Positions 2,269 to 45,410 of a stretch of DNA of 64,000 nucleotides are shown here, piece by piece. Each line of letters begins with the position of its first letter. Position 1 is the stretch's first letter. The notes beneath the pieces are model-generated. The model saw only the letters and a list, made by a program, of their open reading frames with translations. It ran no database searches and was not told where the DNA came from. Made by a program: the position numbers and the translations under genes. Source of the stretch: an uncultured Candidatus Saccharibacteria bacterium (lineage in GTDB: Bacteria; Patescibacteriota; Minisyncoccia; Phycocordibacterales; JACOZG01); assembly GCA_965230925.1 (NCBI GenBank), contig OZ246403.1:458455-522454 (forward strand), read 5' to 3'.

Positions 2269-2498
2269 TATTTCTTCGCTTTCTGGCGATCAAGATATTT
2301 TAAATGAGAACGGCGCTTTGAAACAAGTTTCAATAAACCACGGCGAGAGTGCTCGTCTTTAGCATTTTTCTTCAAATGTTTTGTAAGGGCATCAATTTGG
2401 CGAGAGAGTAAAGCTGCCTGGACCTTTGATGAACCAGTGTCCTTCTCATGAACACTCTCCCGAGAAATAATGGCCTTCTTTTCTTTAGTTGAAAGCAT
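2268..2498 (-). CDS. rpsO: 30S ribosomal protein S15
   Basis: 76 aa. The [20 protein letters not shown] motif matches the S15 signature HSRRGLL...RR.LL.YL. Confidence 0.85.
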
Positions 2499-2529
2499 GG
2501 TGGTATCATATCAAAATCAGGAATTTATG

Positions 2530-3384
2530 GCAACTCCCCTTCTTTTACAACTCAAAGGTCAGTTTTTAGAATATCTTGAGATTGAGCGTGGTCGGAGTGC
2601 TAAAACGGTGGCCAATTACGACCATTATTTGAGGCGTTTCCTTGGTTTTTCGGGTGCCAAGTCTCCCGCCAACCTAACCAGTGAAATGGTGAGAAAGTAC
2701 CGCTTATGGCTTAACCGTGAGACTTTAAAGAAGAATACCCAAAACTATCACCTCATTGCCCTTCGGTCTTTTCTTAAATATCTTGAAAAGCGGGGCCACA
2801 AGACCCTTTCCCCTACGGAAATTGATCTTGCCAAGGTCCCAAGCCGTGATCTTGATCTCATGAGCGCCGAAGATCTCGAGCGATTACTTAAGGCACCTAA
2901 ATCTCCTCGAGATCGGGCTATTCTCGAACTCTTTTTCTCCACTGGGCTTCGAGTGTCTGAACTTTGCGCTCTAGATCGCGACAGTTTCAATCTCAAGCAA
3001 GATGAGTTCTCGGTTCGGGGTAAAGGTGAGAAGGTGCGGGTGGTATTTCTGTCTGACATGGCGAAAAAGGTACTCAAAGAATATCTCGACAAGCGCACTG
3101 ATACGGAAGAGTGCCTATTTGTCAGCGAAAAGAACACTCGTCTTACTCCTCGGAGTATTGAGCGGTTAATCCAGAAGTATGCTATTGCTGCCGGTATTAC
3201 CAAGAAAGTTACTCCTCATACCTTGCGTCACAGCTTTGCTACTGACCTTCTCCGTAACGGAGCCGATCTTCGCTCGGTCCAGATGATGCTCGGCCACGCC
3301 AACATTTCTACCACCCAGATCTATACTCACCTCACCGATCGTCAACTCAAAGAGATTCATAAGACATTTCATCGACGTAGCTAA
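2530..3384 (+). CDS. tyrosine recombinase, XerC/XerD family
   Basis: The C-terminal HTLRHSFATDLLRNGADLRSVQMMLGHANISTTQIYTHL is the classic tyrosine-recombinase catalytic region (R..H..R..Y). The N-terminal SAM-like domain aligns with XerD from MATPLLLQLKGQF. The track ORF begins at 2470, overlapping rpsO; the internal Met at 2530 is the more likely start. Confidence 0.8.
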   Translation, partial: ATPLLLQLKGQFLEYLEIERGRSAKTVANYDHYLRRFLGFSGAKSPANLTSEMVRKYRLWLNRETLKKNTQNYHLIALRSFLKYLEKRGHKTLSPTEIDLAKVPSRDLDLMSAEDLERLLKAPKSPRDRAILELFFSTGLRVSELCALDRDSFNLKQDEFSVRGKGEKVRVVFLSDMAKKVLKEYLDKRTDTEECLFVSEKNTRLTPRSIERLIQKYAIAAGITKKVTPHTLRHSFATDLLRNGADLRSVQMMLGHANISTTQIYTHLTDRQLKEIHKTFHRRS

Positions 3385-5036: not shown

Positions 5037-5108
5037 GCTCTCGTGGTGAAATGGATATCACAACGGTCTTCGGAACCGTTATTGGGGGTTCGAATCCCTC
5101 CGAGAGCA
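5037..5108 (+). tRNA. tRNA-Arg (anticodon TCG)
   Basis: Hand-folded cloverleaf: acceptor GCTCTCG/CGAGAGC, D-stem GTGA/TCAC, anticodon stem ACGGT/ACCGT with loop CTTCGGA, T-arm GGGGG-TTCGAAT-CCCTC, discriminator A. 72 nt. Confidence 0.7.
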
Positions 5109-5178
5109 CAAGCGAGCTGGCGTAGCTGGTGCCAGGATTTGGCTCGTGAATAGGTTTTCTGTTAAGATCTTGCGTATT

Positions 5179-5249
5179 GCGGGCATGGTTTAGTGGTAGA
5201 ACGCGTCCTTGCCAAGGACGAGATGGGAGTCCGATTCTCCCTGCCCGCA
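5179..5249 (+). tRNA. tRNA-Gly (anticodon GCC)
   Basis: Acceptor GCGGGCA/TGCCCGC, anticodon stem CGTCC/GGACG with loop TTGCCAA, T-arm GGGAG-TCCGATT-CTCCC. 71 nt. Confidence 0.75.
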
Positions 5250-5290
5250 CCTAAAAGTCATTAAATCTGTGGATAACATTGGGGACAAGG

Positions 5291-5691
5291 TGGATAAAAG
5301 ACTGTCCGATAAGCAGGAAATAGGTCTTTTAGGCGAAGAAACAGCCTCATTGTTTCTTAAGAAACATGGGTTCACCATTCTAGACCGAAATTACCGTAAA
5401 GTTTTTGGTGAAATAGACATTATTGGAGAAAAGGATGGAATAATTCACTTTTTTGAGGTAAAGACAGTTTCACGTAGAACATTGCCCAAAGAAGGGGAGG
5501 ATGTGTATCTTCCGGAAGAGAATGTGCATCCTTGGAAGATGAAACGTCTTTCTCGGGCGGTGCAAACTTATCTTCTAGAGAAAAGGGTGCCGGAAGATAA
5601 AGACTGGCAAATTGATACCGTGGCGGTTTATCTTGAGAAGGGGACTAATAAAGTTTTGAAAATTGAGGTTTTGGAAGATGTTTTGGTATAG
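5291..5691 (+). CDS. yraN: UPF0102 / YraN-family endonuclease-like protein
   Basis: FGEIDIIGEKDGIIHFFEVKTVSRR matches the YraN/UPF0102 core (GE.D.I.......EVK). The track ORF start at 5209 lies inside tRNA-Gly; the GTG at 5291 (VDKRLSD...) is the more likely start. Confidence 0.65.
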
Positions 5692-5720: not shown

Positions 5721-5793
5721 CGGGGTATGGTGTAACGGCTAACATACTCGCTTTGGGAGCGAGCGACTCTGGGTTCGAATCCCAGTACCCCGA
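5721..5793 (+). tRNA. tRNA-Pro (anticodon TGG)
   Basis: Acceptor CGGGGTA/TACCCCG (C1-G72, typical of Pro), anticodon stem CTCGC/GCGAG with loop TTTGGGA (G37), T-arm CTGGG-TTCGAAT-CCCAG. 73 nt. Confidence 0.75.
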
Positions 5794-5908
5794 TACTCGA
5801 GTTTCTCGATTAGTTATCCACAACTGTCTTTTATGTCCCTTATAATAATTTTGTAGTACAATGAACGCCACTAGGTGGGGAGAAAATTATTAGCTTAGTT
5901 TCTTTACA

Positions 5909-8900
5909 ATGATTGTTAAAAAAGTTCTCGGGATTTTTTTTGTCTTAGCTCTTAGTTTAACGGTGGTTGAGGCACAGGCAGTAAATTCTTCCCCGCATTC
6001 TCAAGGTGGTTTAATTTGGGAATTACTTTCCCGGATCAATCAAATTTCTTTGCTTAGTCAGGCTGGTTGTTCAACAAACACCCCGCCAGCTCCAAGTATT
6101 AGCGTGCCAGTAAATAATTTTTCTGGTGTAGTTGGAACCCCGGTATCTTTTAGTGGTTCCGCTACAGATTCTGGTGGATCAATTTCCATCACCAGTTACA
6201 GTTGGAATTTTGGCGACAGCACTTCTGCTGGTGGTACTAGTGCGAATCATGTTTATGCAACACCTGGTCAGAAAACAGTAACGCTTACTGCAAACGATTG
6301 GTGTGGGGCTTCTGGTTCGACTAATATTTCTATAACAATTAACTCGTCGACTCCGACCAATGCCCCTGCTTCCGTTAATGCTGGCGCGGATCAAAATATT
6401 TCTTCTCTCGGTTTTCCAACTGTAAATCTAAACGCCGCAGTGACCGACGACGGTTTGCCCAATCCTCCTGGTGCTTTAACTTATACTTGGCAGCAGGTGA
6501 GTGGTCCTGCAGGCTCTGTTTTTACTGGGGCCTCGACGCTTAACCCCTCAGTTGCTCTAATGGGTTTTGGTACTTATGTTTTTCGTTTAACGGTTTGGGA
6601 TGGGGCAGTCCAGTCTTACGATGAGGTTTCTGTGACAGCAAATCAGTCAGCCAACAATCCTCCTACTGTTAATGCTGGCACTGATCAGTCTGTTGTTTTT
6701 CCAGCCAGCGCTACGCTTAGTGGCTCGGTTAGCGATGATAACTCCGCTAATCCTTATCGAGTGTGGACGAAAACTAGTGGACCAGGAACCGTTACTTTTT
6801 CTTCACCTTCCAGTAATAGTCCGCTTGCGACCTTTTCTGGGGTTGGTGTTTATGTTTTAAGATTAACAGCAAATGATGGTTTTTTGGAATCTTTTGATGA
6901 GGTTACTGTAACGGTAAACAGTCAAACAAACACTGCCCCGACCGCGTCCGCAGGCTCAGACCGCTCGGTAACTGGTTCAACTGGACCATTTGTTTTCACG
7001 ATCAACAACACTGCCTCTGTTTACGACGATGGTTTGCCTAATCCGCCAGGATCAGTTACTCAAACTTGGACGAAAGTGAGTGGTCCAGGAACTGTAACCT
7101 TCACTCCGAGTAACACTACGCTTCGCCCCACCGTTTCTTTGTCTTTGGCTGGAACCTATGTTTTACGCTTAACCGCGAGTGACAGTGTTCTTTCTGACGA
7201 TGATGAAATGACAGTAACGGTGAATCAGCCGAACAACACCCCAACGGTTGATGCCGGCCCCAATCGAACAATTTATTCATATCAAACCAACTCCGCGTCA
7301 CTTGACGGTACGGTAAATGATGATGGCCTACCTAATCCTCCTGGTGCGCTTGCAACAACATGGACAAAAGTAAGTGGTCCAGGAACAGTAACATTTGCCA
7401 ACGCTTCAAGCGTTGATACTACCGCCACCTTTAGTCAGGCTGGAACCTATGGTTTGCGATTAACCGTTTCCGACGGTTCACTTTCTGCAAACGATACGAT
7501 GACCGTTTTCTATTGGCAGAATAATCCGCCTACGGCAAATGCTGGTCCGGATCAAAATCTTTCTTTTCCTCAAGCACCAGCAATAGTTCCTTTGAGCCCC
7601 TCCGCTTCCAATCCCGATGGTTTGCCTGTTGGTGGGCAGCTTCACTTTGATTGGATTAAAGTCAGTGGACCAGGTAATGCCACCTTTAGTAATTCTGGAG
7701 GCACTTGGCCACCGAATTCTTCACCCTCAGTTACTTTATCTCAATTTGGTAGTTATATTTTGCGCCTGCTCATATCAGACGGGTCTACAAGCTTAGGAGG
7801 TCTCTCGTCGTCTGACGACGTTGCCATCACCATTTCTTCTGGTGGCAATGTTAATACTCCTCCAACGGTAAATGCTGTGGCTGAACCAGCCATAATAACT
7901 CTGCCGACCAGCCAAGTTCTACTAAACGGTACTGTTGCCGACAATAATCTTTCTCTTGTAAGTTATTTGTGGACTAAGGTTAGTGGTCCTACCACTGGTT
8001 CCACCATTGTTTCGCCCACCCAAGTTGATACTAATGTTACCTTCACTCAAGCGGGGACGTACAAATTTAAATTAACAGTCAATGATTCTGGTGTGCCGCC
8101 GTTTAATAACATCTCTTCTCCAGAAGTTACGGTAACCGTAAACCCGGTGAATCAGTGTGCTGGCAATCTTCCTCCTCTGGTTAGCGCTGGGCCGGATCGA
8201 ACAGCCACAGCTGGTGTTTTGATTACGCTTACTGGTTCTTCTTCTGATCCTAATGGTAACAACACTATTACTAACCATGCTTGGAACTTTGGTGATGGTT
8301 CTGCCACCTTTAATGCGCCAAACGCAGTGGCGATGCACACTTTTGCCGTGGCGGGCACTTACAATGTAACTCTTACAGTGACTGATGGATGCCACTCGGT
8401 GAGTGATGAAACTCAAGTAGTCGTTGCTCCACCTCAGCCGAGCAATCAGGCTCCGCAAGCTGGATTGTTGACGGCCAATCCATCCGTTCTTGCCCTGCCC
8501 CTCAACACTCTTAACTTAAGTGTTCCGATAACTGATGATTTGTTGCCCGCACCACATTCAGTGACCACAACCTGGTCACAAGTAAGTGGTCCAGCAACGG
8601 GAACCACCTTTAATCCACCTGTTAGTCAGAGTGCTTTAGCGAGCTTTACTGCTACCACCGCGGTTACTTTGCCTAGTGTTTCAGGGGACTATGTCTTTAG
8701 GGCTTCAATCTCTGATGGTTCGGGTTTGCCTGCAGTTATTCGCGAAGTTACCGTAGCTCTCGGTCCTCCAGTTGCTGGTCCCTGTGATAATAATCAGGCG
8801 CCGACGGCAAATCTTACTGGGCCGACCACTGGTCTTGTGGGGCAAACCCTTACATTTAGCGCCGACGGATCAACTACGGGAAGCAATGGCATGAATGAAA

Positions 8901-11900
8901 ACGGCCAATCTCTCAATGGCTACTGGTTTAATTGGGGTACTGGTTTCACCGGTTGGCAAACCAGCTCCACCTTAGAGCGAGTGTTTACTTCCGTTGGTAC
9001 CTATGTAATCAAACTTTGGGTCAGGGATACTTGCGCAACCAACAACGTTTCTCCTGTTGATGAACTCTCGTTGATTGTTAATAGCTCCGGACCTTCTAAT
9101 ACCGCTCCTGTGATTTCTGGATTTACCGCTGACCAGTTCTCTGTTACTTTGCCAAACAGAACCGTAACCTTAAGCGCGCAAATTTCTGACGATCGTTTAC
9201 CCAATCCGCCCGCACAAATTACCGTAGACTGGTCGCAAGTCGGGGGGACAGAAATTACCACCTTTACCAATGACCCTCAGGTCAATTCTACTGGCAATTT
9301 CACCGCAACTAGCGTTGCTACCTTGCCCAATGTTCCTGGTCTTTATATTTTGCAAGTGTCTGCCGCCGATGGTTCAGCTTTGCCAGCTGCCACGAGTCAA
9401 ATTCTCGTGATGGTAAATTCTCCGCTTCCTACTAACCAGCCTCCAGTGGTTACTGCTTCAGCCATGCCAGCAGAAATTTCTTTACCACTGAATCAGGTTG
9501 CTCTTGCGGGTAATTATACCGATGATAACTTGCCCACAGGGAGAACCATTACTACGACGTGGTCCGTTGATGAGGCGCCACAAGGAAGTTTTGTTCTCTT
9601 TGGTAACCCAGCTGCGCTTAACACCACGGCTACCTTTTCTCCTGTTGCCGGGACTTATAAGCTTAAGTTAACCGCCACGGAATTCCTCAACGGAAGCCCT
9701 GTTCTTTCTGGTGTTTCTGTAGCCACTGTGTTGGTGAACCCAATTACTGACCCCTGTATCGGCAACACGCCACCTTCCGCTAACGCCGGTTTTGACCAAA
9801 GTGTTGCTGAGGATTCATTGGTTAGTTTCAACGGTACTTTGTCGGCAGATGTTGGTGGTTCCATTTCTACCTACTCCTGGAACTTTGGTGATGGTGGTAC
9901 TGGAAGCGGAGCAACACCCACCCACATTTACACCACTTCCGGAACTTATGTCGCCACTCTTACGGTGACTGATAATTGTGGGGCCACTCATTCTGATACC
10001 GCAACCATTGTTGTTACAAGTTCAGCTCCCGCCCAGATTCCCCCAAGGGTTAATGCCGGCGTTGATCAGTTTAATCTTTCTTTTCCCACTACCGTTTCTT
10101 TGAGCGGAACGGTTTCTGGTTTTCCCTCGGGCTACTCAAAGTTGTGGACTAAAGTTGCGGGGCCAGGAACAGTTTCCTTCAGTTCCCCTAACAGTTTACA
10201 GACCACTGCAACGTTTTCGTCGGCCGGTTTCTATGCCCTCAAATTAACTGTTACATCTGGAAGCCTTGTGGTGTCAGATATCGTTGAGGTTATCTTTAAT
10301 CAAGCGGTATCAGTGAGCGCTGGTGTCGATAGATCCCTAAACTTGGCTACTAGCAATCATCAAGGTTCACTCACTTTCGATGCCTCGGTTACTGCCAGTG
10401 ACCCGTCACCATTGTCGTATTCTTGGTCACAGGTATCTGGTCCCCAAGCCTTAACTATTACTAATAGCCAGGTTCTCGATGCGACAGTCAGCGCTAACAA
10501 GGCCGGTACTTATGTTTTGCGCCTAACCGTTTCTGGTCCTGGAGTTGTTCCTTCAAACGATACAGTCACCTTGTCAGTTAGAGACCTTGAAGCTGGGTCT
10601 AATCAGAATATTGTTTTGCCTGCTTCGGTTGCTTTGTCGGGAACGGCAAGTAATTTTCCTACAGGTACTACTTATCAGTGGACACAGTTTTCTGGTCCTG
10701 CTGGTGGTTCGGCTTTCTCAAGTCAAAATAGCTTAAACACAAACGTCAGTTTTTCTCAGAGTGGGACATATCAATTGCGCTTAACCGCGACGCCTCTGGG
10801 GGAGTCTCCAATCTACGATACAGTACAAGTTGGTGTTGCTGTTGTGGGGAGTTTGGGGGTTGATGCTGGTTCTGACCAATTGAACACAACCTTCACTTCC
10901 CCGTCAGTTACTAGAAATCTAAACGGTGTTGTGGTTAATGCTCCAGTTGGTACCACTTATAAATGGACAAAAGCATCTGGGCCTTCTGGTGGTGCTCAAC
11001 CGACCTTTTCTCCAAGTGATGTGGTTTTGAACCCCGTTGTTACCCTGTATCAAACTGGAAGTTACACGTTCCAACTCAAAGCCACTCCGCCTAGTGGGCT
11101 TGCGGTATTAGATACGGTGTCTATTACGTTTAATGTTAATCCAACCAACATTTCGGTAGAAGCTTCACCAAACTATTTGACTTGGCCACAGAACTCTACG
11201 AATCTAAACATTAATTTTTCCGACAGTAATCCCGAGAGTGTGAGTGGTTTGTGGACTCAGTTTCAAGGGCCAATTGGTCAGGCAAGCTTTGCTAGCCCGA
11301 ATTCGTTTGACACCACGGTTACTTTTGGACAAGTTGGGAACTATGATCTTCGAATGACTATTGATGATGGTTTGGCTTATGATCCTCAGATTACTCGAGA
11401 AGTTAAGGTCTACCCGGCTTGTGGTGTTGGTAATCAAAAACCAACAGCCTTTGCGAGTGCCGACCAGTGGGTTCAGGTGAACCATGGTGTCGCGCTCTCA
11501 CCCTTTTCTTCTGTTGGTATTGGTTCTGCTGGATACACACCTTCAACTGACAGTGATGGCGTGATTACCAGTTATTATTGGGATTTTGGCGATGGTTCTT
11601 TCAGCGTTGAGGGTAGTACGAACCATTCTTACACCCAGGTTGGTACCTATAATGCTACGCTTACTGTGGCTGATAACTGCGGCTTGATTGATACTGAAGA
11701 AGTGGTGGTCCATGTGGTACCAGTTAATCCAGGTGCGTTTAATCCAGTTTTGAAATCTTACAGGCTAGAAGCCTATCACCCGGCTACTGGTGAAGAGGTT
11801 TGGACGGAACTTTCCGGATCAGTTGTTTCTGTTGAAACTGGAGATTTGTTACGTCTCGACCTTTTGTCTGGGGCGGGAGGTATTGGACTTTCCACCTGGA

Positions 11901-13081
11901 CAATCGGTAATCAAAATGTGGAGATAACGCAAAGTGGGTTGGTGCAAAAAGTGAAGTTTCTCTCTCCTAGTTTATTGACCAATCCAGCCAGTGTAATGGT
12001 TTATCCCGATGATTACAGCTCCTCTGTTGTTCTGAGTAAAAACTTTGACGTCAACAATGTAATGGACGAAGTTGGTGTTGGTCCGGGGATTCATCTTTCT
12101 GCTAGGGAGATGACTGTAAATGAAAATGGTTCCTTGGCTTGGGCTATTCATAGTGAGCCAAATCCCTGCACTCCTGGTGATACTTTTGGCCCACAGTGTA
12201 TGACCTTAACCCAGCTCGATTTGAGTGACGAGGATAATATTACTGTAAATGAATATATGCCAAACACAATTTCTAATCCAACTTCCCTCGCCTATTCTCA
12301 TGACCATCTTTACCTTAGAGATGGAATTAATATTAAAGTTTTTGGTGTTTCTGCCAACTCCGCTCCCCAATATCAGGGAACTTATAATTTAGGAAACTCC
12401 TCTACTGGTGGAGTTTATAAAGGAGTGGCCGCAAGGGGTCAAGTATTGTTCTCTACGGCAGGAAACCTTGGATTGAAAGTGCTCGATTTAAGACAAACAC
12501 CAACTCTTTCTCTTTTAGGTCAGACTTCATTGCCTGGTGGAGAGGTGGCAAATGTCCTCTTCTTAGATGGTAATAAGCTATATGTTGGTGGCGCTAACAA
12601 TAAAGTTCACATCTTCGACATATCTTGCTTGGGTGATTTAGAGGCGCCAAGTGCTTGTAATCCAAACATCATTGGGTCTGTGGATGTTGGTAGTAATATT
12701 AGTTTCTTAGCCAAGACCGGGTTTGGTGGTCATGATTATGTTCTGGTTTACACTTACTCTGGAGTGAAGGTTTATGATATTACTAACCTGGGTCAAATTG
12801 TTCAGGTAGGAGAGTTTAGTCCGTATCAAGTGTTTGGAGCTAATGCAACTGGGGTTCTGGCTTTTGGCAACAAGTTATATTTTGGCTTTAGTCCAACCAA
12901 CCTTAATTATGGAACAAGTGTTGCTCGTATAAACCTTGCAAATCCAAGTGAGATCTATGCCATGGAATGGATTTCTACGCTAACGGCCGGAGGTAATAAG
13001 CAAATGATTCATCAGAACGGGAAGCTCTATGTAACGAGTGATACCAACGATATTATTATCCTTGATTTGCTAAACGAATAG
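5909..13081 (+). CDS. 2390-aa secreted multi-domain surface protein (signal peptide; about 14 Ig-like 'DDGLPNPPG...W.KVSGPG...LRLTVSDG' domains; about 4 PKD domains; C-terminal LVIVD-like beta-propeller)
   Basis: Single uninterrupted 7.2-kb ORF. N-terminal signal peptide MIVKKVLGIFFVLALSLTVVEAQA. Repeated ~100-aa modules begin with N(A/V)G.DQ and carry DDGLPNPP and TWTKVSGPGTVTF motifs. PKD signatures: SYSWNFGDSTS, HAWNFGDGSATF, YSWNFGDGGTGS, YYWDFGDGSFS. The C-terminal 400 aa carry propeller-like repeats (KVHIFDIS, GVKVYDITNLG). Confidence 0.85.
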   Translation: MIVKKVLGIFFVLALSLTVVEAQAVNSSPHSQGGLIWELLSRINQISLLSQAGCSTNTPPAPSISVPVNNFSGVVGTPVSFSGSATDSGGSISITSYSWNFGDSTSAGGTSANHVYATPGQKTVTLTANDWCGASGSTNISITINSSTPTNAPASVNAGADQNISSLGFPTVNLNAAVTDDGLPNPPGALTYTWQQVSGPAGSVFTGASTLNPSVALMGFGTYVFRLTVWDGAVQSYDEVSVTANQSANNPPTVNAGTDQSVVFPASATLSGSVSDDNSANPYRVWTKTSGPGTVTFSSPSSNSPLATFSGVGVYVLRLTANDGFLESFDEVTVTVNSQTNTAPTASAGSDRSVTGSTGPFVFTINNTASVYDDGLPNPPGSVTQTWTKVSGPGTVTFTPSNTTLRPTVSLSLAGTYVLRLTASDSVLSDDDEMTVTVNQPNNTPTVDAGPNRTIYSYQTNSASLDGTVNDDGLPNPPGALATTWTKVSGPGTVTFANASSVDTTATFSQAGTYGLRLTVSDGSLSANDTMTVFYWQNNPPTANAGPDQNLSFPQAPAIVPLSPSASNPDGLPVGGQLHFDWIKVSGPGNATFSNSGGTWPPNSSPSVTLSQFGSYILRLLISDGSTSLGGLSSSDDVAITISSGGNVNTPPTVNAVAEPAIITLPTSQVLLNGTVADNNLSLVSYLWTKVSGPTTGSTIVSPTQVDTNVTFTQAGTYKFKLTVNDSGVPPFNNISSPEVTVTVNPVNQCAGNLPPLVSAGPDRTATAGVLITLTGSSSDPNGNNTITNHAWNFGDGSATFNAPNAVAMHTFAVAGTYNVTLTVTDGCHSVSDETQVVVAPPQPSNQAPQAGLLTANPSVLALPLNTLNLSVPITDDLLPAPHSVTTTWSQVSGPATGTTFNPPVSQSALASFTATTAVTLPSVSGDYVFRASISDGSGLPAVIREVTVALGPPVAGPCDNNQAPTANLTGPTTGLVGQTLTFSADGSTTGSNGMNENGQSLNGYWFNWGTGFTGWQTSSTLERVFTSVGTYVIKLWVRDTCATNNVSPVDELSLIVNSSGPSNTAPVISGFTADQFSVTLPNRTVTLSAQISDDRLPNPPAQITVDWSQVGGTEITTFTNDPQVNSTGNFTATSVATLPNVPGLYILQVSAADGSALPAATSQILVMVNSPLPTNQPPVVTASAMPAEISLPLNQVALAGNYTDDNLPTGRTITTTWSVDEAPQGSFVLFGNPAALNTTATFSPVAGTYKLKLTATEFLNGSPVLSGVSVATVLVNPITDPCIGNTPPSANAGFDQSVAEDSLVSFNGTLSADVGGSISTYSWNFGDGGTGSGATPTHIYTTSGTYVATLTVTDNCGATHSDTATIVVTSSAPAQIPPRVNAGVDQFNLSFPTTVSLSGTVSGFPSGYSKLWTKVAGPGTVSFSSPNSLQTTATFSSAGFYALKLTVTSGSLVVSDIVEVIFNQAVSVSAGVDRSLNLATSNHQGSLTFDASVTASDPSPLSYSWSQVSGPQALTITNSQVLDATVSANKAGTYVLRLTVSGPGVVPSNDTVTLSVRDLEAGSNQNIVLPASVALSGTASNFPTGTTYQWTQFSGPAGGSAFSSQNSLNTNVSFSQSGTYQLRLTATPLGESPIYDTVQVGVAVVGSLGVDAGSDQLNTTFTSPSVTRNLNGVVVNAPVGTTYKWTKASGPSGGAQPTFSPSDVVLNPVVTLYQTGSYTFQLKATPPSGLAVLDTVSITFNVNPTNISVEASPNYLTWPQNSTNLNINFSDSNPESVSGLWTQFQGPIGQASFASPNSFDTTVTFGQVGNYDLRMTIDDGLAYDPQITREVKVYPACGVGNQKPTAFASADQWVQVNHGVALSPFSSVGIGSAGYTPSTDSDGVITSYYWDFGDGSFSVEGSTNHSYTQVGTYNATLTVADNCGLIDTEEVVVHVVPVNPGAFNPVLKSYRLEAYHPATGEEVWTELSGSVVSVETGDLLRLDLLSGAGGIGLSTWTIGNQNVEITQSGLVQKVKFLSPSLLTNPASVMVYPDDYSSSVVLSKNFDVNNVMDEVGVGPGIHLSAREMTVNENGSLAWAIHSEPNPCTPGDTFGPQCMTLTQLDLSDEDNITVNEYMPNTISNPTSLAYSHDHLYLRDGINIKVFGVSANSAPQYQGTYNLGNSSTGGVYKGVAARGQVLFSTAGNLGLKVLDLRQTPTLSLLGQTSLPGGEVANVLFLDGNKLYVGGANNKVHIFDISCLGDLEAPSACNPNIIGSVDVGSNISFLAKTGFGGHDYVLVYTYSGVKVYDITNLGQIVQVGEFSPYQVFGANATGVLAFGNKLYFGFSPTNLNYGTSVARINLANPSEIYAMEWISTLTAGGNKQMIHQNGKLYVTSDTNDIIILDLLNE

Positions 13082-13113
13082 GCAGCTAAAGATCTTTCTG
13101 CTATTCTGACTCG

Positions 13114-13131
13114 GCGAAGACTCTTCGCTTT
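13114..13131 (+). terminator. weak stem-loop after the 2390-aa protein gene
   Basis: GCGAAGA-c-TCTTCGC inverted repeat followed by TTT. Stem and T-run are short. Confidence 0.3.
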
Positions 13132-13136
13132 AGTCA

Positions 13137-13207
13137 CGGGCTGTAGTATACCGGTAGTACGCGCCCATGGGGTGGGTGTAGACCGGGTTCGATTCCCGGC
13201 AGCCCGA
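13137..13207 (+). tRNA. tRNA-Pro (anticodon GGG)
   Basis: Acceptor CGGGCTG/CAGCCCG, U8, D-arm GTAT...GTAC, anticodon stem CGCCC/GGGTG (one G-U pair) with loop ATGGGGT, T-arm CCGGG-TTCGATT-CCCGG, discriminator A. 71 nt. Confidence 0.65.
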
Positions 13208-13222
13208 AGGTTATAATTAGTT

Positions 13223-13630
13223 ATGATTCAACACTTAATCGTTATTGCGGCATCAGTGGTTGGTTTTGTTGCGGCTTACTATATTGCGCGGCAGAAGGCG
13301 AGAGGGGAGAAGCTTGTGTGTCCGCTTGATGCTAATTGCGAAGCGGTGGTGCATAGCGACTATTCTCGTTTGCTCGGTATTCCGCTTGAGTATCTGGGCT
13401 TAATCTATTACGGACTAACTTTCCTAGCGCATGTTTTATTCCTCTTTTTTCCAGTCTGGTCAGAGGGGGTTTATCCTTCGATTCTGAAATTGGTGAGCGG
13501 AGGAGCCTTTCTTTTCTCTCTTTATCTCATTTGGGTACAATTTGCCAAGCTTAAGAATTGGTGTTTCTGGTGTATGGTTTCTTCGGCCGCAACTTTGGTA
13601 ATCTTTGTTTCCAGTTTTTTTCTTCACTAA
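13223..13630 (+). CDS. vitamin K epoxide reductase (VKOR) family membrane protein
   Basis: 135-aa polytopic membrane protein with a loop Cys pair (CPLDANC) and a C-terminal CFWC redox motif in a transmembrane helix, the hallmark arrangement of bacterial VKOR homologs. Confidence 0.65.
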   Translation: MIQHLIVIAASVVGFVAAYYIARQKARGEKLVCPLDANCEAVVHSDYSRLLGIPLEYLGLIYYGLTFLAHVLFLFFPVWSEGVYPSILKLVSGGAFLFSLYLIWVQFAKLKNWCFWCMVSSAATLVIFVSSFFLH

Positions 13631-13679
13631 TTTTTGCTAGGATGATTTTGCGGGCTTGCCACGCCGAAGCGTAGCGCAG

Positions 13680-13753
13680 GCGGGATTAGTTAAATGGTAT
13701 AACGTCGGTTTTCCAAACCGAGGTCGGGAGTTCGATTCTCCCATCCCGCACCA
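13680..13753 (+). tRNA. tRNA-Gly (anticodon TCC), CCA encoded
   Basis: Acceptor GCGGGAT/ATCCCGC, D-stem GTTA/TAAC, anticodon stem TCGGT/ACCGA with loop TTTCCAA, T-arm GGGAG-TTCGATT-CTCCC, discriminator A plus CCA. Confidence 0.75.
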
Positions 13754-13844
13754 GAGAATCGAAGGCCGGAGCGCGGCGGCGCGAGGCGGGGTCGCGGGCC
13801 GAGCCAGCAGGCGAGGACCTGTGACCGATTCTCCCATCCCGCAC
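13754..13844 (+). repeat. 74-bp GC-rich insert followed by a 19-bp direct repeat (13826-13844) of the tRNA-Gly 3' end (13733-13751)
   Basis: cgattctcccatcccgcac occurs at 13733-13751 inside the tRNA and again at 13826-13844. The intervening sequence (ggccggagcgcggcggcgcgaggcggggtcgcgggccgagccagcaggcgagg) is far more GC-rich than its surroundings. Confidence 0.6.
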
Positions 13845-23014: not shown

Positions 23015-23024
23015 TTTTTAACCC

Positions 23025-23078
23025 ATGTCTTGCGAGCATAAATTCAAATTGACCGAAGGTGGCGGGTTGTTACAATAA
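23025..23078 (+). pseudogene. degraded duplicate of the 5' end of the 23450 fibre gene (17-codon remnant MSCEHKFKLTEGGGLLQ*)
   Basis: The sequence 23008-23060 (aattagtttttaacccATGTCTtgcgagcataaattcaaattgacc) parallels 23437-23490 (aataatttttaacccATGTCTcaagagaaaaaatttaaattaacg), including the start codon. It encodes MSCEHKFKLTE versus MSQEKKFKLTQ and then terminates. Confidence 0.55.
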
Positions 23079-23082
23079 GTAT

Positions 23083-23439
23083 ATGGGAAAAGAAATCACA
23101 CTCGAATCTCTTGATAATAAGATAGATAGCAAATTTGGCACGCTTGATTCTAAGTTTACATCCCTTGATGCCAAGTTTAATTCCCTCGACACGAAATTTG
23201 ATGTGCTTCAGGAAGTCTTACAAGACAACTTTAAGATTATTGCTGAGCAGTTTAAGACGGTAAATGAGAAGTTAGACCGACACGAAGTGAAACTGGACCA
23301 ACACGACAAGAGATTTGATCAAATTGAGATTAGATTAGATGAACATGAAAGAAAACTCGACTCTTTGACGGAAGTAGTTGGTGATATTAAAGTCGAAGTT
23401 ATGGGCTTGAACCACAGAGTAGAAGTTTTAGAAAAATAA
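23083..23439 (+). CDS. heptad-repeat coiled-coil protein, hypothetical
   Basis: Tandem 7-residue repeats KIDSKFG/TLDSKFT/SLDAKFN/SLDTKFD followed by further coiled-coil sequence. Probable start MGKEITLESL; the track ORF starts 8 codons earlier. Confidence 0.5.
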   Translation: MGKEITLESLDNKIDSKFGTLDSKFTSLDAKFNSLDTKFDVLQEVLQDNFKIIAEQFKTVNEKLDRHEVKLDQHDKRFDQIEIRLDEHERKLDSLTEVVGDIKVEVMGLNHRVEVLEK

Positions 23440-23449
23440 TTTTTAACCC

Positions 23450-27173: not shown

Positions 27174-27182
27174 AATTATAAT

Positions 27183-42454: not shown

Positions 42455-43363
42455 ATGTGGCGGCGGGAAAATGTTAAATGGTTCGTGGTTATCGTTCTTT
42501 TTCTCGCCAATTTTCTTGTCTGGTATGCAGTTCAAGCAGAAGATCGTGGCGGATTGTTAACGGTTGCTTTCTTAGATATCGGTCAGGGCGATTCCATTTT
42601 CATTGATGCGCCAAACGGTAATCAGATTTTGCTCGATGGTGGTCGCGGGCGCCAAGTGCTCGAGGCGCTCGCGGCTGAAATGCCATTTTATGATCGTTCA
42701 CTTGATCTGGTGATTGCTTCGCACCCCGACGCGGACCACATTGGTGGTCTCACTGATGTTTTTGAGAATTATGAAGTAACCGGCTTTCTCGAGCCGGGTG
42801 TGCCGGCCGATACTGGTGTTTATGAGCGACTCCAATCTGATGTTGCGGCCGAAGGAGCTCAAACAATGCTTGCCGAGCGCGGTATGCGCATTGTTCTCGA
42901 TGATCTCCACGGTGTTTATCTCACCATTCTTTTTCCTGACCGAGACCCATCAGGCATGGAAACTAATGAAGCCTCAATTATTGCTAAACTTACTTATGGC
43001 GAGATCGACTTTCTCTTAACCGGTGATTCGCCAGCGAAAATTGAAAAATATTTGACAGGGGTTGATGGGGCAATGTTGCAGGCCGAGGTGCTAAAAGCTG
43101 GTCACCACGGATCGAAAACCTCTACCTCTGACGCTTTTCTTGGGGCTGTGGCGCCTGAATATGCCGTTATTTCTGTGGGGAAAAATAGTTATGGTCACCC
43201 GAGCCCAGAAGTGTTGGATCGACTCGAGGCGGCAAAAATAAAAACCTTTCGTACGGACGAATTGGGGACAATCCTTTTTGCGACCGACGGCGAGAAGATT
43301 TATACTAATTGGACTAGTCTAAGCGGCATTAGAGCGAATGTTGTATCAGAAAATTTATTTTAA
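42455..43363 (+). CDS. ComEC/Rec2 C-terminal-type metallo-beta-lactamase domain protein with its own N-terminal transmembrane anchor
   Basis: TM helix (VKWFVVIVLFLANFLVWYAV), then LTVAFLDIGQGDSIFIDAPNGNQILLDGG...HPDADHIGGL, the MBL motif set typical of ComEC C-termini. 302 aa. Confidence 0.75.
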   Translation: MWRRENVKWFVVIVLFLANFLVWYAVQAEDRGGLLTVAFLDIGQGDSIFIDAPNGNQILLDGGRGRQVLEALAAEMPFYDRSLDLVIASHPDADHIGGLTDVFENYEVTGFLEPGVPADTGVYERLQSDVAAEGAQTMLAERGMRIVLDDLHGVYLTILFPDRDPSGMETNEASIIAKLTYGEIDFLLTGDSPAKIEKYLTGVDGAMLQAEVLKAGHHGSKTSTSDAFLGAVAPEYAVISVGKNSYGHPSPEVLDRLEAAKIKTFRTDELGTILFATDGEKIYTNWTSLSGIRANVVSENLF

Positions 43364-45410
43364 ACTCGGAGTTACTAGCGGACTATTAATCCTAGCCTTG
43401 CTTTTATTTCAGAAATTATCTTTGTCGCCCCTTAGTCAAACTGGCCTTATTAACCAAGGGCCACTCAGTAAACGTTCAATTTCTGTGGTGGCACCGAGTG
43501 AGCCGGAGTTAAGTCCTCTAACCAATCGCCCTCCTCAGGTTTTTGCCGGGTCTGATCAAACCATTAATGCCTCAACCGCCAATCTTTTTGGGACGGCAAA
43601 CGATGATGGTTTGCCCAACCCGCCAAGCCGGCTCAGTTTCCAGTGGCAAAAAGTTGGTGGTCCAGGAGAAGTTTTGTGGGGAAACCAAGAAATGATTCTT
43701 ACTACCGCGTCCTTTTCCGATCCTGGTTCATATACCTTACGCCTCACGGTTTCTGATGGTCTTCTTAGTGCCAGCGATGATCTGGCAATTAATGCTTCTT
43801 GCGCCGGAAATACTCTACCCACGCCGGCCCTGGCTTCGCTGAGCGGAGGAGAAGTGGGGCAGCCTGTTATTTTTAACGCTTCAGGTTCGCACGATTTGGA
43901 TGGGCAGGCGCTTGAGTATAAATTTAACTTTGGTGACGGGGTGACAACAGACTGGTTGGCAACCCCGATAATTCCTCACACCTACAACCAGACCGGGAGC
44001 TATTCAATATTGCTGTGGGTGAGAGACACCTGTGGAGGCGAGTCGGAGCCGCTTATGACCTCCGTGTTGATTGAGGTTGCTGCACCGCATCAAGCTTCCT
44101 TGGTTAGAAATATCAACCCTGGAACGAGTGGCTCTAATCCCACCTTAGCCGCCCAGCTGAATGCTACCACTTTTCTTTTTGCTGCTACCCACAATACTTC
44201 TGGTCGGGAGCTTTGGCGAAGCGACGGCTCAGCTGTCGAAACCAGACTCGTAAAAGACATCAATTTAACTGGTTCCGCAGCCAACTCTTTCCCGCAGTCT
44301 TTTGTCACTTTGAATGACTTGGTTTTGTTTACTGCTGATGACGGTGTTCATGGTCGGGAGTGGTGGCGGAGTAACGGCACGAGCACAGGTACTGCTTTGG
44401 TCAAAGATGTCTATCCAGGCAATGTTGGTTCGGACCCGATTATTATTGGCCAATTAGGAAATGAAATTTATTTTGCGGCGAACGACGGTGTTCATGCTCG
44501 GGAAATATGGAAAACTGATGGTACGGAAGCCGGAACAGTTTTGGTGAGAGACATTAGTTTGACCGGTAATGGCGTGTTGGCTAATGCTCCCGATGTCCGC
44601 AGTGGCGGAGTTTTAGGTGATTACCTGTATTTTGTCGGCAATGACTTAGGTCCAGCTTTTACTGATTGGGAATTGTGGCGCACCGACGGCACCGAGGCAG
44701 GAACAACCCTGGTTAAGAACATTAATCCTACCAGCAATTCATTGCCTGAAGGGTTTTTGAGTGTTGGGTCTAGTTTATACTTTACGGCTTGGGACGGTGT
44801 TCATGGTGAGGAATTGTGGAAAACCAATGGGACTGAAGCAGGAACAATTATGGTTAAAAACATTAATCCCAATGAGGGCTTTGTTTCGTCAGGACCACGG
44901 CGTTTAACTAAATGGAATAACCAAGTTTACTTTTCAGCTGATGATGGAGTTTTTGGGTACGAATTGTGGAAAACGGACGGTTCTCTTGAGGGGACAGTTT
45001 TAGTCACCGACATTTTTCCTGGAGCCAACTCTTCTTTACCCGATGAGTTAATGGTCGGCGGTAATTCTTTCTATTTTGTTGCTGATGACGGTGTTCATGG
45101 TGCCGAACTTTGGCGAACTAACGGTACCGCTTTCGGCACTGCTTTAGTGAAAGACATTTACCCTGGATCAGAAGCGGGTGAAATCAGAGACCTTACTTGG
45201 TTTAACGGGGAGCTTTTCTTTGGGGCCAAAGATAGTCTAGCCAATAATGAACTGTGGCTAAGCGACGGTACGGCACAAGGGACGGCTCAAGTTCAAGAGA
45301 TTTATTCCGGGTTAAACGGAGCTTATCCTAACGGCTTTTTCCCTATAAACAACCGCCTTTATTTTGCTGCAGATAATGGTTTAGTAGGAGTGGAGCTTTG
45401 GGGTTACTAG
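43338..45410 (+). CDS. secreted ELWxxDGT-repeat beta-propeller protein with N-terminal Ig-like (DDGLPNPP) and PKD domains
   Basis: Signal/anchor. One module (AGSDQ...NDDGLPNPPSRLSFQWQKVGGPG...LRLTVSDG) homologous to the repeats of the 2390-aa protein. PKD motif YKFNFGDG. At least 10 repeats of ELW(R/K)(S/T)(D/N)GT..GT.LVKDI.PG. Confidence 0.8.
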   Translation: MLYQKIYFKLGVTSGLLILALLLFQKLSLSPLSQTGLINQGPLSKRSISVVAPSEPELSPLTNRPPQVFAGSDQTINASTANLFGTANDDGLPNPPSRLSFQWQKVGGPGEVLWGNQEMILTTASFSDPGSYTLRLTVSDGLLSASDDLAINASCAGNTLPTPALASLSGGEVGQPVIFNASGSHDLDGQALEYKFNFGDGVTTDWLATPIIPHTYNQTGSYSILLWVRDTCGGESEPLMTSVLIEVAAPHQASLVRNINPGTSGSNPTLAAQLNATTFLFAATHNTSGRELWRSDGSAVETRLVKDINLTGSAANSFPQSFVTLNDLVLFTADDGVHGREWWRSNGTSTGTALVKDVYPGNVGSDPIIIGQLGNEIYFAANDGVHAREIWKTDGTEAGTVLVRDISLTGNGVLANAPDVRSGGVLGDYLYFVGNDLGPAFTDWELWRTDGTEAGTTLVKNINPTSNSLPEGFLSVGSSLYFTAWDGVHGEELWKTNGTEAGTIMVKNINPNEGFVSSGPRRLTKWNNQVYFSADDGVFGYELWKTDGSLEGTVLVTDIFPGANSSLPDELMVGGNSFYFVADDGVHGAELWRTNGTAFGTALVKDIYPGSEAGEIRDLTWFNGELFFGAKDSLANNELWLSDGTAQGTAQVQEIYSGLNGAYPNGFFPINNRLYFAADNGLVGVELWGY

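What the first reader, a model, noticed from the sequence alone, without database searches (positions are those of the whole stretch)
5721..13207. A 2390-aa secreted multi-domain protein bracketed by two tRNA-Pro genes shares modules with a downstream ELWxxDGT propeller protein
The 7.2-kb gene (signal peptide, ~14 Ig-like 'NAG.DQ...DDGLPNPPG...TWTKVSGPG...LRLTVSDG' modules, 4 PKD domains, C-terminal LVIVD-like beta-propeller) lies exactly between tRNA-Pro(TGG) and tRNA-Pro(GGG). More tRNAs (Arg, Gly, Gly) and a VKOR gene sit on either side, an arrangement reminiscent of an island. The 690-aa protein at 43338 reuses the same Ig-like module and a PKD domain but ends in at least 10 ELWxxDGT repeats. 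This implies a shared toolkit of adhesin modules shuffled onto different propellers. Such surface proteins are prime candidates for host or particle binding in an organism with few other surface systems.
Basis: partly seen in the sequence, partly recalled or inferred. Interest (0 to 1): 0.6.

Follow-up and report, generated by a model that had tools for sequence, protein, structure and literature searches.

The report
Giant secreted Ig-domain and propeller surface protein
A tiny-genome (Patescibacteria) bacterium encodes a 2390-residue secreted protein built from 20 Ig-like PKD domains ending in a seven-bladed propeller; this probably forms a long surface fibre for binding hosts or particles, it uses only known domain families, and it occupies a variable gap in a conserved tRNA cluster rather than a mobile island.

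Summary
ORF 5909-13081 (2390 aa) lies between tRNA-Pro(TGG) and tRNA-Pro(GGG).

- **Architecture:** Sec signal peptide, 19 tandem PKD-type domains (14 K319L-like, 5 classic PKD), one degenerate PKD-like domain, and a C-terminal 7-bladed beta-propeller.
- **Propeller:** it misses the Pfam LVIVD threshold, but its homologues are LVIVD-repeat proteins.
- **690-aa protein (43338-45410):** K319L-like PKD + PKD + ELWxxDGT repeats (TIGR04534), with 8 full repeats and a truncated ninth, not at least 10.

- **Not a mobile island:** the tRNA-Arg/Gly/Pro/Pro/Gly set, with CCA enzyme, UPF0102, VKOR, Alr, HU and RNase Y, is conserved housekeeping synteny in related Patescibacteria. I found no integrase, no att-type repeats and no compositional anomaly.
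- **Still lineage-specific:** five relatives have only 109-967 bp between the two tRNA-Pro genes. Only the closest relative has a PKD-array gene there.
- **Old modules:** they are at most 52% identical to each other, so there was no recent expansion. The 690-aa protein's module is no closer to the big protein's modules than modules from unrelated proteins are.
- **Likely paralogue:** a 1449-aa protein is collinear at 48.7% identity and probably comes from the same ~716-kb genome.

Verdict: a new member of a known kind. It is most likely a fibrillar surface or adhesion protein. Interest is low to moderate.

The parts
5721..5793 (+). tRNA-Pro(TGG), upstream neighbour of the big gene (115-nt gap)
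   Evidence: ARAGORN; Rfam tRNA 64 bits. Conserved next to UPF0102 in relatives.
5817..5846 (+). Sigma-70-like promoter match (TCCACA-18-TATAAT, 10/12) between the tRNA and the start codon; weak evidence only
   Evidence: The number of such matches in the region equals the shuffle expectation.
5909..13081 (+). CDS of the 2390-aa secreted multi-domain protein
   Evidence: The identical protein occurs in several independent SRA assemblies and an NCBI record.
5909..5980 (+). Sec-type signal peptide (aa 1-24, MIVKK + hydrophobic core + AQA|V). This is the only hydrophobic segment in the protein.
   Evidence: Sequence. Kyte-Doolittle scan. The cleavage site is inferred by the AXA rule.
6005..6064 (+). 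Post-signal amphipathic segment GLIWELLSRINQISLLSQAG, shared with relatives P0002 and P0007 (SLDLLRSFLNILQMQLSGAG). Role unknown; possibly surface retention or oligomerisation.
   Evidence: sequence comparison by eye.
6083..11719 (+). Array of 19 tandem PKD-type Ig-like domains (aa 59-1937). Classic PKD: D1 59-145, D8 755-840, D10 964-1058, D13 1288-1370, D19 1844-1937. The other 14 are K319L-like, many with the DDGLPNPPG...TWTKVSGPG motifs.
   Evidence: Pfam; own HMM; alignment and identity matrix; PDB homology to AAVR PKD.
11744..12055 (+). 20th, degenerate PKD-like beta-sandwich (aa ~1946-2049) that always precedes the propeller in this family
   Evidence: AF2 model. The family profile matches ColH PKD at 5.6e-12 and S-layer protein 1L0Q at 1.8e-4.
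12062..13069 (+). C-terminal 7-bladed beta-propeller (aa ~2052-2387), a divergent LVIVD-repeat relative; proposed ligand-binding head
   Evidence: AF2 with a 14-sequence alignment gives pLDDT 86 and pTM 0.85, with 28 strands. Foldseek top hits are BamB, WD40 and YncE propellers. phmmer hits LVIVD proteins. 10 of 14 family members hit PF08309.
13137..13207 (+). tRNA-Pro(GGG), downstream neighbour (55-nt gap)
   Evidence: ARAGORN; Rfam 50.4 bits. Conserved next to VKOR in relatives.
5037..5691 (+). Conserved context: tRNA-Arg(TCG) 5037-5109, tRNA-Gly(GCC) 5179-5251, UPF0102 gene 5269-5691
13223..13753 (+). Conserved context: VKOR gene 13223-13630 and tRNA-Gly(TCC) 13680-13753
   Evidence: VKOR lies next to tRNA-Pro(GGG) in L010, L017 and L021, which lack the big gene.
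43338..45410 (+). 690-aa protein: N-terminal hydrophobic segment, K319L-like PKD (aa 65-154, nt 43530-43799), classic PKD (aa 161-248, nt 43818-44081), ELWxxDGT-repeat region (aa ~255-690, nt 44100-45407; 8 full repeats plus a truncated one)
   Evidence: Pfam; NCBIfam TIGR04534 at 452.9 bits; HMM; motif count.

Best explanation
The gene encodes a Sec-exported, non-enzymatic fibrillar surface protein of a Patescibacteria (CPR) bacterium.

**Shown:**
- a cleavable-looking signal peptide;
- a rod of 20 Ig-like PKD-fold domains (14 K319L-like, 5 classic PKD each bracketed by a Cys pair, 1 degenerate);
- a terminal 7-bladed beta-propeller homologous to LVIVD-repeat propellers;
- no catalytic domain and no second hydrophobic segment or C-terminal anchor.

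**Inferred:**
- The Ig array acts as a stalk. At roughly 4 nm per PKD domain it would be about 70-90 nm long and would hold the propeller away from the cell.
- The propeller is the ligand-binding head for a host cell surface, polysaccharide or particle.
- This fits the episymbiotic lifestyle proposed for this class and the Ig/PKD secreted proteins reported as highly expressed in cultured Paceibacteria (PMC10936435).
- Retention on the cell may use the conserved post-signal amphipathic segment.

**Locus.** The gene is a lineage-specific occupant of a variable gap (tRNA-Pro(TGG) to tRNA-Pro(GGG)) inside an otherwise conserved housekeeping tRNA cluster. It is not a mobile island. The 690-aa ELWxxDGT protein, and a probable 1449-aa paralogue elsewhere in the same ~716-kb genome, use the same old domain families.
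For: - **Architecture:** Pfam K319L-like_PKD 7e-123 and PKD 1e-81; 19 domains delimited; homology to solved AAVR PKD domains.
- **C-terminal module:** pLDDT 86, an Ig-like sandwich followed by 28 strands; Foldseek top hits are all propellers, E about 1e-10.
- **LVIVD relationship:** an exhaustive phmmer search gives 530 hits. The full-length ones are PKD arrays ending in the same module and carry Pfam LVIVD, and the more distant ones are canonical LVIVD proteins.
- **Hydrophobic segments:** only the N-terminus is hydrophobic.
- **Cysteines:** the 14 Cys form 7 positional pairs, 5 of which bracket the classic PKD domains.
- **Organism:** flanking-gene relatives are all Patescibacteria/Paceibacterota MAGs.
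- **Conserved tRNA framework:**
- **Pro-Pro gap:** 109, 344, 817, 963 and 967 bp in L006, L025, L021, L017 and L010, against 7343 bp here.
- **Closest relative:** L001 (CCA enzyme 81% identical) has a PKD-array gene starting right after tRNA-Pro(TGG).
- **Paralogue:** P0002 is collinear at 48.7% over 1236 aa, with positional module identities of 54-74%.
- **Literature:** secreted Ig-like/PKD proteins are highly expressed in host-attached Paceibacteria (PMC10936435).
Against: - No experimental or expression data exist for this protein.
- No recognised cell-wall or membrane anchor is present, so it could be released rather than displayed.
- The ligand of LVIVD-type propellers is unknown, and propellers can be purely structural.
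- The window's own propeller does not reach the Pfam LVIVD threshold.
- Family members also occur in non-CPR bacteria with outer-membrane-type neighbours, so the architecture is not specific to episymbionts.
- The stalk length and the adhesin role are inferences from domain type only.
Confidence: 0.6

Rival explanations
1. tRNA-targeted genomic island: the 7.3-kb segment was acquired horizontally by site-specific integration at a tRNA-Pro gene and is mobile cargo.
For: The gene is absent from the Pro-Pro interval in five relatives and from the 10-kb flanks of most others. Homologous architectures occur in unrelated bacteria from the same sample series. A tyrosine recombinase lies 2.3 kb upstream.
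Against: - The flanking tRNAs are two different isoacceptors that are neighbours in relatives too.
- There are no direct repeats of a tRNA 3' end or any other att-like repeat around the gene.
- The recombinase is Xer-type and sits in the same place in nearly all relatives.
- VKOR, Alr and the other tRNAs are conserved context.
- GC of 0.46 and GC3 of 0.37 are within the window's range.
- The segment contains a single gene and no mobility genes.
- The closest relative already has a PKD-array gene at the same spot.
Confidence: 0.07
2. Structural envelope component: the protein is an S-layer or sheath subunit, like the Methanosarcina S-layer proteins that combine a 7-bladed YVTN propeller with PKD domains (PDB 1L0Q). 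It would not be a specific adhesin.
For: The family profile's PKD-like domain matches 1L0Q 'Surface layer protein' (E 1.8e-4). LVIVD repeats were first described in archaeal and bacterial cell-surface proteins (PMC2447325). The combination of a propeller with PKD domains is the same.
Against: A 20-domain rod is atypical for lattice-forming S-layer subunits. The gene is not conserved among relatives, whereas a main envelope protein would be expected to be. No SLH or other wall-binding domain was detected.
Confidence: 0.15
3. Released substrate-capturing or enzyme-accessory protein: the PKD arrays and propeller bind polysaccharide or protein substrates in the environment for nutrient scavenging, as PKD domains do in collagenases, chitinases and M36 peptidases. 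There would be no role in cell-cell attachment.
For: NCBIfam partial hits fall in the PKD regions of M36 metallopeptidases and HypBA2. PDB hits to collagenase PKD domains. No anchor was detected.
Against: No catalytic domain exists anywhere in the 2390 aa. The NCBIfam hits are far below the family cut-offs (262 against 1500 bits) and cover only the Ig domains.
Confidence: 0.12

Closest known systems
K319L-like PKD domain (Pfam PF22352; KIAA0319L/AAVR PKD domains, PDB 6NZ0)
   Same: 14 of the modules match this family well above threshold. Sequence homology to the solved AAVR PKD domains is E 8e-12. The fold is an Ig-like beta-sandwich and the arrangement is tandem.
   Different: This is a bacterial variant with the DDGLPNPPG...TWTKVSGPG motifs, in a much longer array interspersed with classic PKD domains. 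It has no relation to the eukaryotic receptor function.
LVIVD-repeat beta-propeller proteins (Pfam PF08309; Adindla et al. 2004, PMC2447325)
   Same: The C-terminal module is homologous: phmmer E reaches 1e-15 against canonical LVIVD proteins, and 10 of 14 family members hit PF08309. It is predicted to be a 7-bladed propeller, and the protein context is cell-surface.
   Different: The window's own sequence does not reach the Pfam threshold (E 7.1). It belongs to a distinct subfamily that is always C-terminal and always preceded by a degenerate PKD-like domain.
Methanosarcina mazei surface-layer protein fragment (PDB 1L0Q): YVTN 7-bladed propeller + PKD
   Same: It combines a 7-bladed propeller with PKD domains in an exported envelope protein. 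The PKD-like domain of the family profile matches 1L0Q (E 1.8e-4).
   Different: The domain order is opposite (propeller then PKD), the propeller repeat family differs (YVTN against LVIVD-like), and there is one PKD domain rather than 20.
ELWxxDGT repeat proteins (NCBIfam TIGR04534), for the 690-aa protein
   Same: 452.9 bits against a cut-off of 65, with 8 repeats of about 48 aa.
   Different: None that matters. It is preceded by one K319L-like PKD and one PKD domain.
Fibrillar adhesins (stalk of repeated Ig-like domains plus a terminal binding domain, e.g. SiiE, PMC5466336)
   Same: A long tandem Ig-like stalk, a terminal globular domain, and export.
   Different: No T1SS signal, LPXTG motif or other known anchor. 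The binding head is at the C-terminus and is a propeller. The adhesive function is untested.

Membership tests
K319L-like PKD domain (PF22352) | Sequence match to the Pfam model above its gathering score | tested here: met
   401.4 bits against a cut-off of 27, 13 stretches. The 690-aa protein scores 34.6 bits.
K319L-like PKD domain (PF22352) | Ig-like/PKD beta-sandwich fold | tested here: met
   Established by homology to solved AAVR PKD domains (6NZ0, E 8.2e-12) and 2YRL. No separate structure prediction of a module was run.
Classic PKD domain (PF00801/PF18911) | Match above gathering score, with the WxFGDG motif | tested here: met
   PKD_4 269 bits and PKD 206 bits, 5 stretches each. Motifs such as YSWNFGD and HAWNFGDG are visible in D1, D8, D13 and D19.
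LVIVD repeat (PF08309) | Direct match of this protein to the Pfam model above its gathering score (20.2 bits) | tested here: not met
   6.5 bits, E 7.1. No families at E <= 0.01.
LVIVD repeat (PF08309) | Homology to proteins that are members | tested here: met
   phmmer gives P0003-P0005, P0010 and P0011 (E 5.5e-31 to 2.3e-18) and the canonical P0013 (1e-15), all of which carry PF08309. 10 of 14 members of alignment A1 hit LVIVD, best 1.3e-15.
LVIVD repeat (PF08309) | Beta-propeller fold | tested here: met
   AF2 pLDDT 86 with 28 strands, i.e. 7 four-stranded blades. Foldseek PDB top hits are BamB, WD40 and YncE.
ELWxxDGT repeat protein (TIGR04534), 690-aa protein | Match above the NCBIfam cut-off | tested here: met
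   452.9 bits against 65, 8 stretches. Motif count of 8 + 1 truncated.
tRNA-integrated genomic island | Integrase belonging to the element, next to the tRNA | tested here: not met
   The only recombinase (2470-3384) is Xer-type. It is conserved beside the CCA-enzyme gene in nearly all relatives, including those without the big gene.
tRNA-integrated genomic island | Direct repeat of the tRNA 3' end (attL/attR) bounding the segment | tested here: not met
   No such repeat around 5721-13207. The two tRNAs are distinct isoacceptors that are also adjacent in relatives.
tRNA-integrated genomic island | Deviant base composition or codon usage | tested here: not met
   GC 0.46-0.49 against a window range of 0.41-0.51. 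GC3 0.37 within the 0.35-0.58 range of window genes.
tRNA-integrated genomic island | Presence or absence polymorphism among relatives | tested here: met
   The Pro-Pro gap is 109-967 bp in five relatives against 7343 bp here. tblastn finds a PKD-array gene at this spot only in L001.
Fibrillar adhesin | Stalk of tandem repeated Ig-like domains | tested here: met
   19-20 tandem domains.
Fibrillar adhesin | Recognised cell-surface anchor (LPXTG, TM, T1SS retention, SLH, etc.) | tested here: not met
   No Pfam anchor domain. No hydrophobic segment other than the signal peptide. The protein ends in the propeller.
Fibrillar adhesin | Demonstrated binding by the terminal domain | not testable with these tools
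   Needs binding experiments.
DGR (diversity-generating retroelement) target protein | Template/variable repeat pair and a reverse transcriptase nearby | tested here: not met
   No long near-identical repeat involving the gene anywhere in the 64-kb window.

The most novel reading that the evidence does not exclude
The tRNA-Pro(TGG)/tRNA-Pro(GGG) gap, and the tRNA cluster around it, is a hot spot where Paceibacteria-type episymbionts swap lineage-specific surface-fibre genes. The 2390-aa protein and its 1449-aa paralogue would present divergent LVIVD-like propeller heads (34% identical) on positionally conserved Ig stalks, and these heads would act as the host-recognition determinants that set host range.
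Probability: 0.15. Interest if true: 0.55.

Novelty: new member of a known kind. Interest (0 to 1): 0.25.

Why it matters
How Patescibacteria/CPR cells recognise and attach to hosts is largely unknown. Large secreted Ig-domain proteins are among the few candidates. This protein is a well-defined example: a complete gene, assembled identically in several samples, with a confident model of its terminal propeller. It could be expressed and tested for binding.

As a genomic feature it is ordinary. All its domains belong to described families, the same architecture occurs in other phyla, and the tRNA 'bracket' is conserved housekeeping synteny.

Tried and rejected
1. **Word-indexed homologue search with the C-terminal 454 aa:** no hit at all. 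The exhaustive HMMER search was needed.
2. **Single-sequence AF2 of the C-terminus:** unusable, pLDDT 41. It was redone with a 14-sequence alignment.
3. **Profile search of the word-indexed database with alignment A1:** it mostly returned PKD proteins through the flanking Ig domain and added little.
4. **Metagenome scan for close relatives of the C-terminal module:** one weak locus at 25% identity, not informative.
6. **Exact-sequence look-up of P0002 and P0007 contigs:** not on record. That P0002 lies in the same genome rests only on the identical recorded contig length.
7. **att-like or TR/VR repeats:** none found.
8. **Recent repeat expansion:** rejected. Modules are at most 52% identical at protein level and each is closer to its positional counterpart in P0002, at 54-74%.
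9. **A special relationship between the 690-aa protein's module and the big protein's modules:** rejected, because foreign modules are equally close.
10. **VKOR adjacency as a functional operon with this Cys-paired protein:** considered. VKOR sits beside tRNA-Pro(GGG) in relatives that lack the gene, so the adjacency is inherited context.
Full report
**1. The observation**

The ORF at 5909..13081 (+) encodes 2390 aa. ARAGORN places tRNA-Pro(TGG) at 5721-5793 and tRNA-Pro(GGG) at 13137-13207. tRNA-Arg(TCG) and tRNA-Gly(GCC) lie upstream, and tRNA-Gly(TCC) lies downstream.

Rfam confirms all five tRNAs. The whole-window pass missed tRNA-Pro(GGG), but it scores 50.4 bits when a short stretch is searched, so that was a filter loss.

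The gene is separated from the two tRNA-Pro genes by 115 and 55 nt. The identical 2390-aa protein was found on contigs from several independent SRA assemblies with the same neighbours, and in an NCBI record. It is therefore not an assembly artefact of a repetitive gene.

**2. Anatomy of the protein**

- **Domain families.** Pfam gives K319L-like_PKD (PF22352, E 7e-123, 13 stretches) and PKD/PKD_4 (5 stretches).
- **Domain count.** An HMM built iteratively from the protein's own modules delimits 19 tandem domains covering aa 59-1937 without gaps. Five are classic PKD domains with WxFGDG (D1, D8, D10, D13, D19). Fourteen are the K319L-like type with DDGLPNPPG...TWTKVSGPG...LRLTVSDG.
- **Fold.** Modules D2-D5 are sequence-homologous to the solved PKD domains of KIAA0319L/AAVR (6NZ0, E 8e-12), so the Ig-like fold is established by homology.
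- **N-terminus.** It is a typical Sec signal peptide (MIVKK, hydrophobic core, AQA|V). This is the only hydrophobic stretch in the protein.
- **Cysteines.** The 14 cysteines form seven positional pairs. Five of these bracket the five classic PKD domains.

**3. The C-terminal 454 aa**

This region has no significant Pfam hit (LVIVD E 7.1). It had no hit in the word-indexed search either.

The exhaustive HMMER search of 1.84 billion representatives found 530 proteins.
- The full-length matches (P0002-P0005, P0010, P0011 and others) are PKD arrays that end in the same module. Most carry Pfam LVIVD above threshold.
- The more distant matches are canonical multi-repeat LVIVD propeller proteins (for example P0013, with 12 LVIVD stretches).
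- Of the 14 sequences in my alignment A1 of the module, 10 hit LVIVD. The window's own copy does not.

With that alignment AlphaFold2 gives a confident model (pLDDT 86, pTM 0.85).
- First comes a beta-sandwich at aa ~1946-2049. At profile level it matches collagenase PKD domains (5.6e-12) and the Methanosarcina S-layer protein 1L0Q (1.8e-4).
- Then come 28 strands, which I read as seven four-stranded blades.
- Foldseek against the PDB returns only propellers at the top: BamB, WD40 proteins and YncE, at E about 1e-10.

Strict Pfam membership of this copy is not met.

**4. Age of the repeats**

- Pairwise identity among the 19 modules is at most 52%. DNA repeats are short and 60-90% identical.
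- Modules D13-D19 are each 54-74% identical to the positionally equivalent module of P0002 (1449 aa). That is far more than to any paralogous module in the same protein.
- The two proteins align collinearly at 48.7% over 1236 aa.

The array is therefore old and positionally conserved. It is not a recent expansion.

P0002 is recorded on an NCBI contig of 715,934 bp, the same length recorded for both window proteins. It is therefore very probably a paralogue elsewhere in the same ~716-kb genome. This is an inference: the exact look-up of its contig failed.

**5. The 690-aa protein (43338..45410)**

It has a hydrophobic N-terminus, one K319L-like PKD, one classic PKD and ELWxxDGT repeats (TIGR04534, 452.9 bits). 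There are 8 full repeats and a truncated terminal one.

Its K319L-like module is 53% identical to D5. Modules from other proteins (P0021, P0014) are 54-58% identical to D5, and the DNA identity is about 61%. The sharing is therefore at the level of a widespread domain subfamily. There is no evidence of recent exchange between the two genes.

**6. Genomic context and the island question**

A scan with the neighbouring CCA-adding enzyme found 28 related loci. All but one are Patescibacteria/Paceibacterota-type MAGs, at 49-81% identity.

The gene order here is NYN - Xer - CCA - tRNA-Arg - tRNA-Gly(GCC) - UPF0102 - tRNA-Pro(TGG) - [gap] - tRNA-Pro(GGG) - VKOR - tRNA-Gly(TCC) - Alr - HU - RNase Y. 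This order recurs in relatives and is complete in L021.

| Locus | Gap between the two tRNA-Pro genes |
|---|---|
| L006 | 109 bp |
| L025 | 344 bp |
| L021 | 817 bp |
| L017 | 963 bp |
| L010 | 967 bp |
| This window | 7343 bp |

- In relatives these gaps hold only small unrelated ORFs.
- tblastn with the PKD array and with the propeller finds nothing at this position in any locus except L001.
- L001 is the closest relative (CCA enzyme 81% identical). There a signal-peptide/PKD-array gene begins right after tRNA-Pro(TGG) and runs off the contig end. It is only 34-41% identical to parts of the window protein.
- No att-like repeats exist.
- The tyrosine recombinase is Xer-type and conserved in place.
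- Composition is unremarkable.

Conclusion: the tRNAs are conserved housekeeping context. The gene is a lineage-specific occupant of a variable gap, and there is no sign of a mobile island.

**7. Function**

Shown: an exported protein made entirely of Ig-like domains plus a propeller, with no catalytic domain and no recognised anchor.

Inferred: a fibrillar surface protein in which the Ig array is a stalk of about 70-90 nm and the propeller is a binding head. This fits three things.
- LVIVD repeats were first described in cell-surface proteins (PMC2447325).
- The Methanosarcina S-layer protein 1L0Q also combines a propeller with a PKD domain.
- Secreted Ig-like/PKD proteins are among the most highly expressed genes of host-attached Paceibacteria (PMC10936435).

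The rivals are an S-layer or structural role and a released substrate-binding protein. Neither can be excluded from sequence alone.

The same architecture occurs in a bacterium with outer-membrane-type neighbours, from the same sample series. The architecture is therefore not specific to CPR.

**8. Verdict**

- 5 classic PKD domains rather than 4;
- an extra degenerate PKD-like domain;
- 8-9 ELWxxDGT repeats rather than at least 10;
- LVIVD similarity only by remote homology.

The Ig/PKD fold, the propeller, the shared domain families and the variable presence of the gene hold up. The island reading, recent expansion or shuffling, and 'few other surface systems' do not. On the last point, this window also encodes type IV pilus genes, ComEC and a Peptidase_S74 fibre-like protein.

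This is a new member of a known kind, and interest is low to moderate.

Noticed in passing
window 13812-13844 (compare 13719-13751): A partial copy of the 3' end of tRNA-Gly(TCC) lies about 60 nt downstream of that tRNA, just before alr. It is 82% identical over 33 nt and includes an exact 18-mer, GATTCTCCCATCCCGCAC. It could be an att-like scar of a past integration or excision at tRNA-Gly (family D10).
   Followed up: no
window 23006-23053 and 23431-23478: A 48-nt direct repeat (81% identical) flanks a 126-aa coiled-coil XhlA-like ORF (23059-23439). Each copy contains a stop codon followed by ATGTCT. The first copy heads only a 17-codon ORF that mimics the start of the 637-aa gene at 23450. 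This looks like a small cassette insertion with target duplication. The region is low in GC (0.417).
   Followed up: partly
window 21374-23014: A 546-aa protein carries a C-terminal Peptidase_S74 domain, the intramolecular chaperone of endosialidase and tail-fibre proteins (E 2e-13). It is a phage-tail-fibre-like or surface-fibre protein, and it sits just upstream of the type IV pilus genes.
   Followed up: no
window 25422-30169 and 40343-41785: A type IV pilus gene set is present: a PilB-type ATPase (T2SSE), a PilC-type T2SSF protein, and a 591-aa pilin-like protein with an N-methylation motif and a CarboxypepD_reg domain. ComEC is also present. The organism therefore has other surface systems in this same window.
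   Followed up: partly
L021 8383-8778; L025 3925-4173: Small GIY-YIG-looking ORFs (for example 'YVYILQSKSDGGWYTGY') sit inside the variable gaps of the tRNA cluster in relatives. They may be selfish endonuclease genes contributing to turnover there.
   Followed up: no
window 6005-6064 (aa 33-52 of the big protein): The post-signal amphipathic segment GLIWELLSRINQISLLSQAG is conserved in relatives P0002 and P0007 (SLDLLRSFLNILQMQLSGAG) but not in more distant family members. It is a candidate retention or oligomerisation element.
   Followed up: partly
window 13137-13207: The Rfam gathering-threshold scan of the whole window missed tRNA-Pro(GGG), although it scores 50.4 bits (cut-off 29) when a 900-nt stretch is searched. 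Whole-window Rfam passes can drop real tRNAs.
   Followed up: yes
L035 6001-9399 (NCBI GCA_964494205.1) and L036 (SRR12808457): A 1132-aa PKD-array protein with an LVIVD-like propeller, from the same family, occurs in a different organism from the same SRA project series. Its neighbours are of a non-CPR type (DUF481, Secretin_N, DUF1573, ECF sigma). The family therefore spans phyla within one habitat.
   Followed up: no
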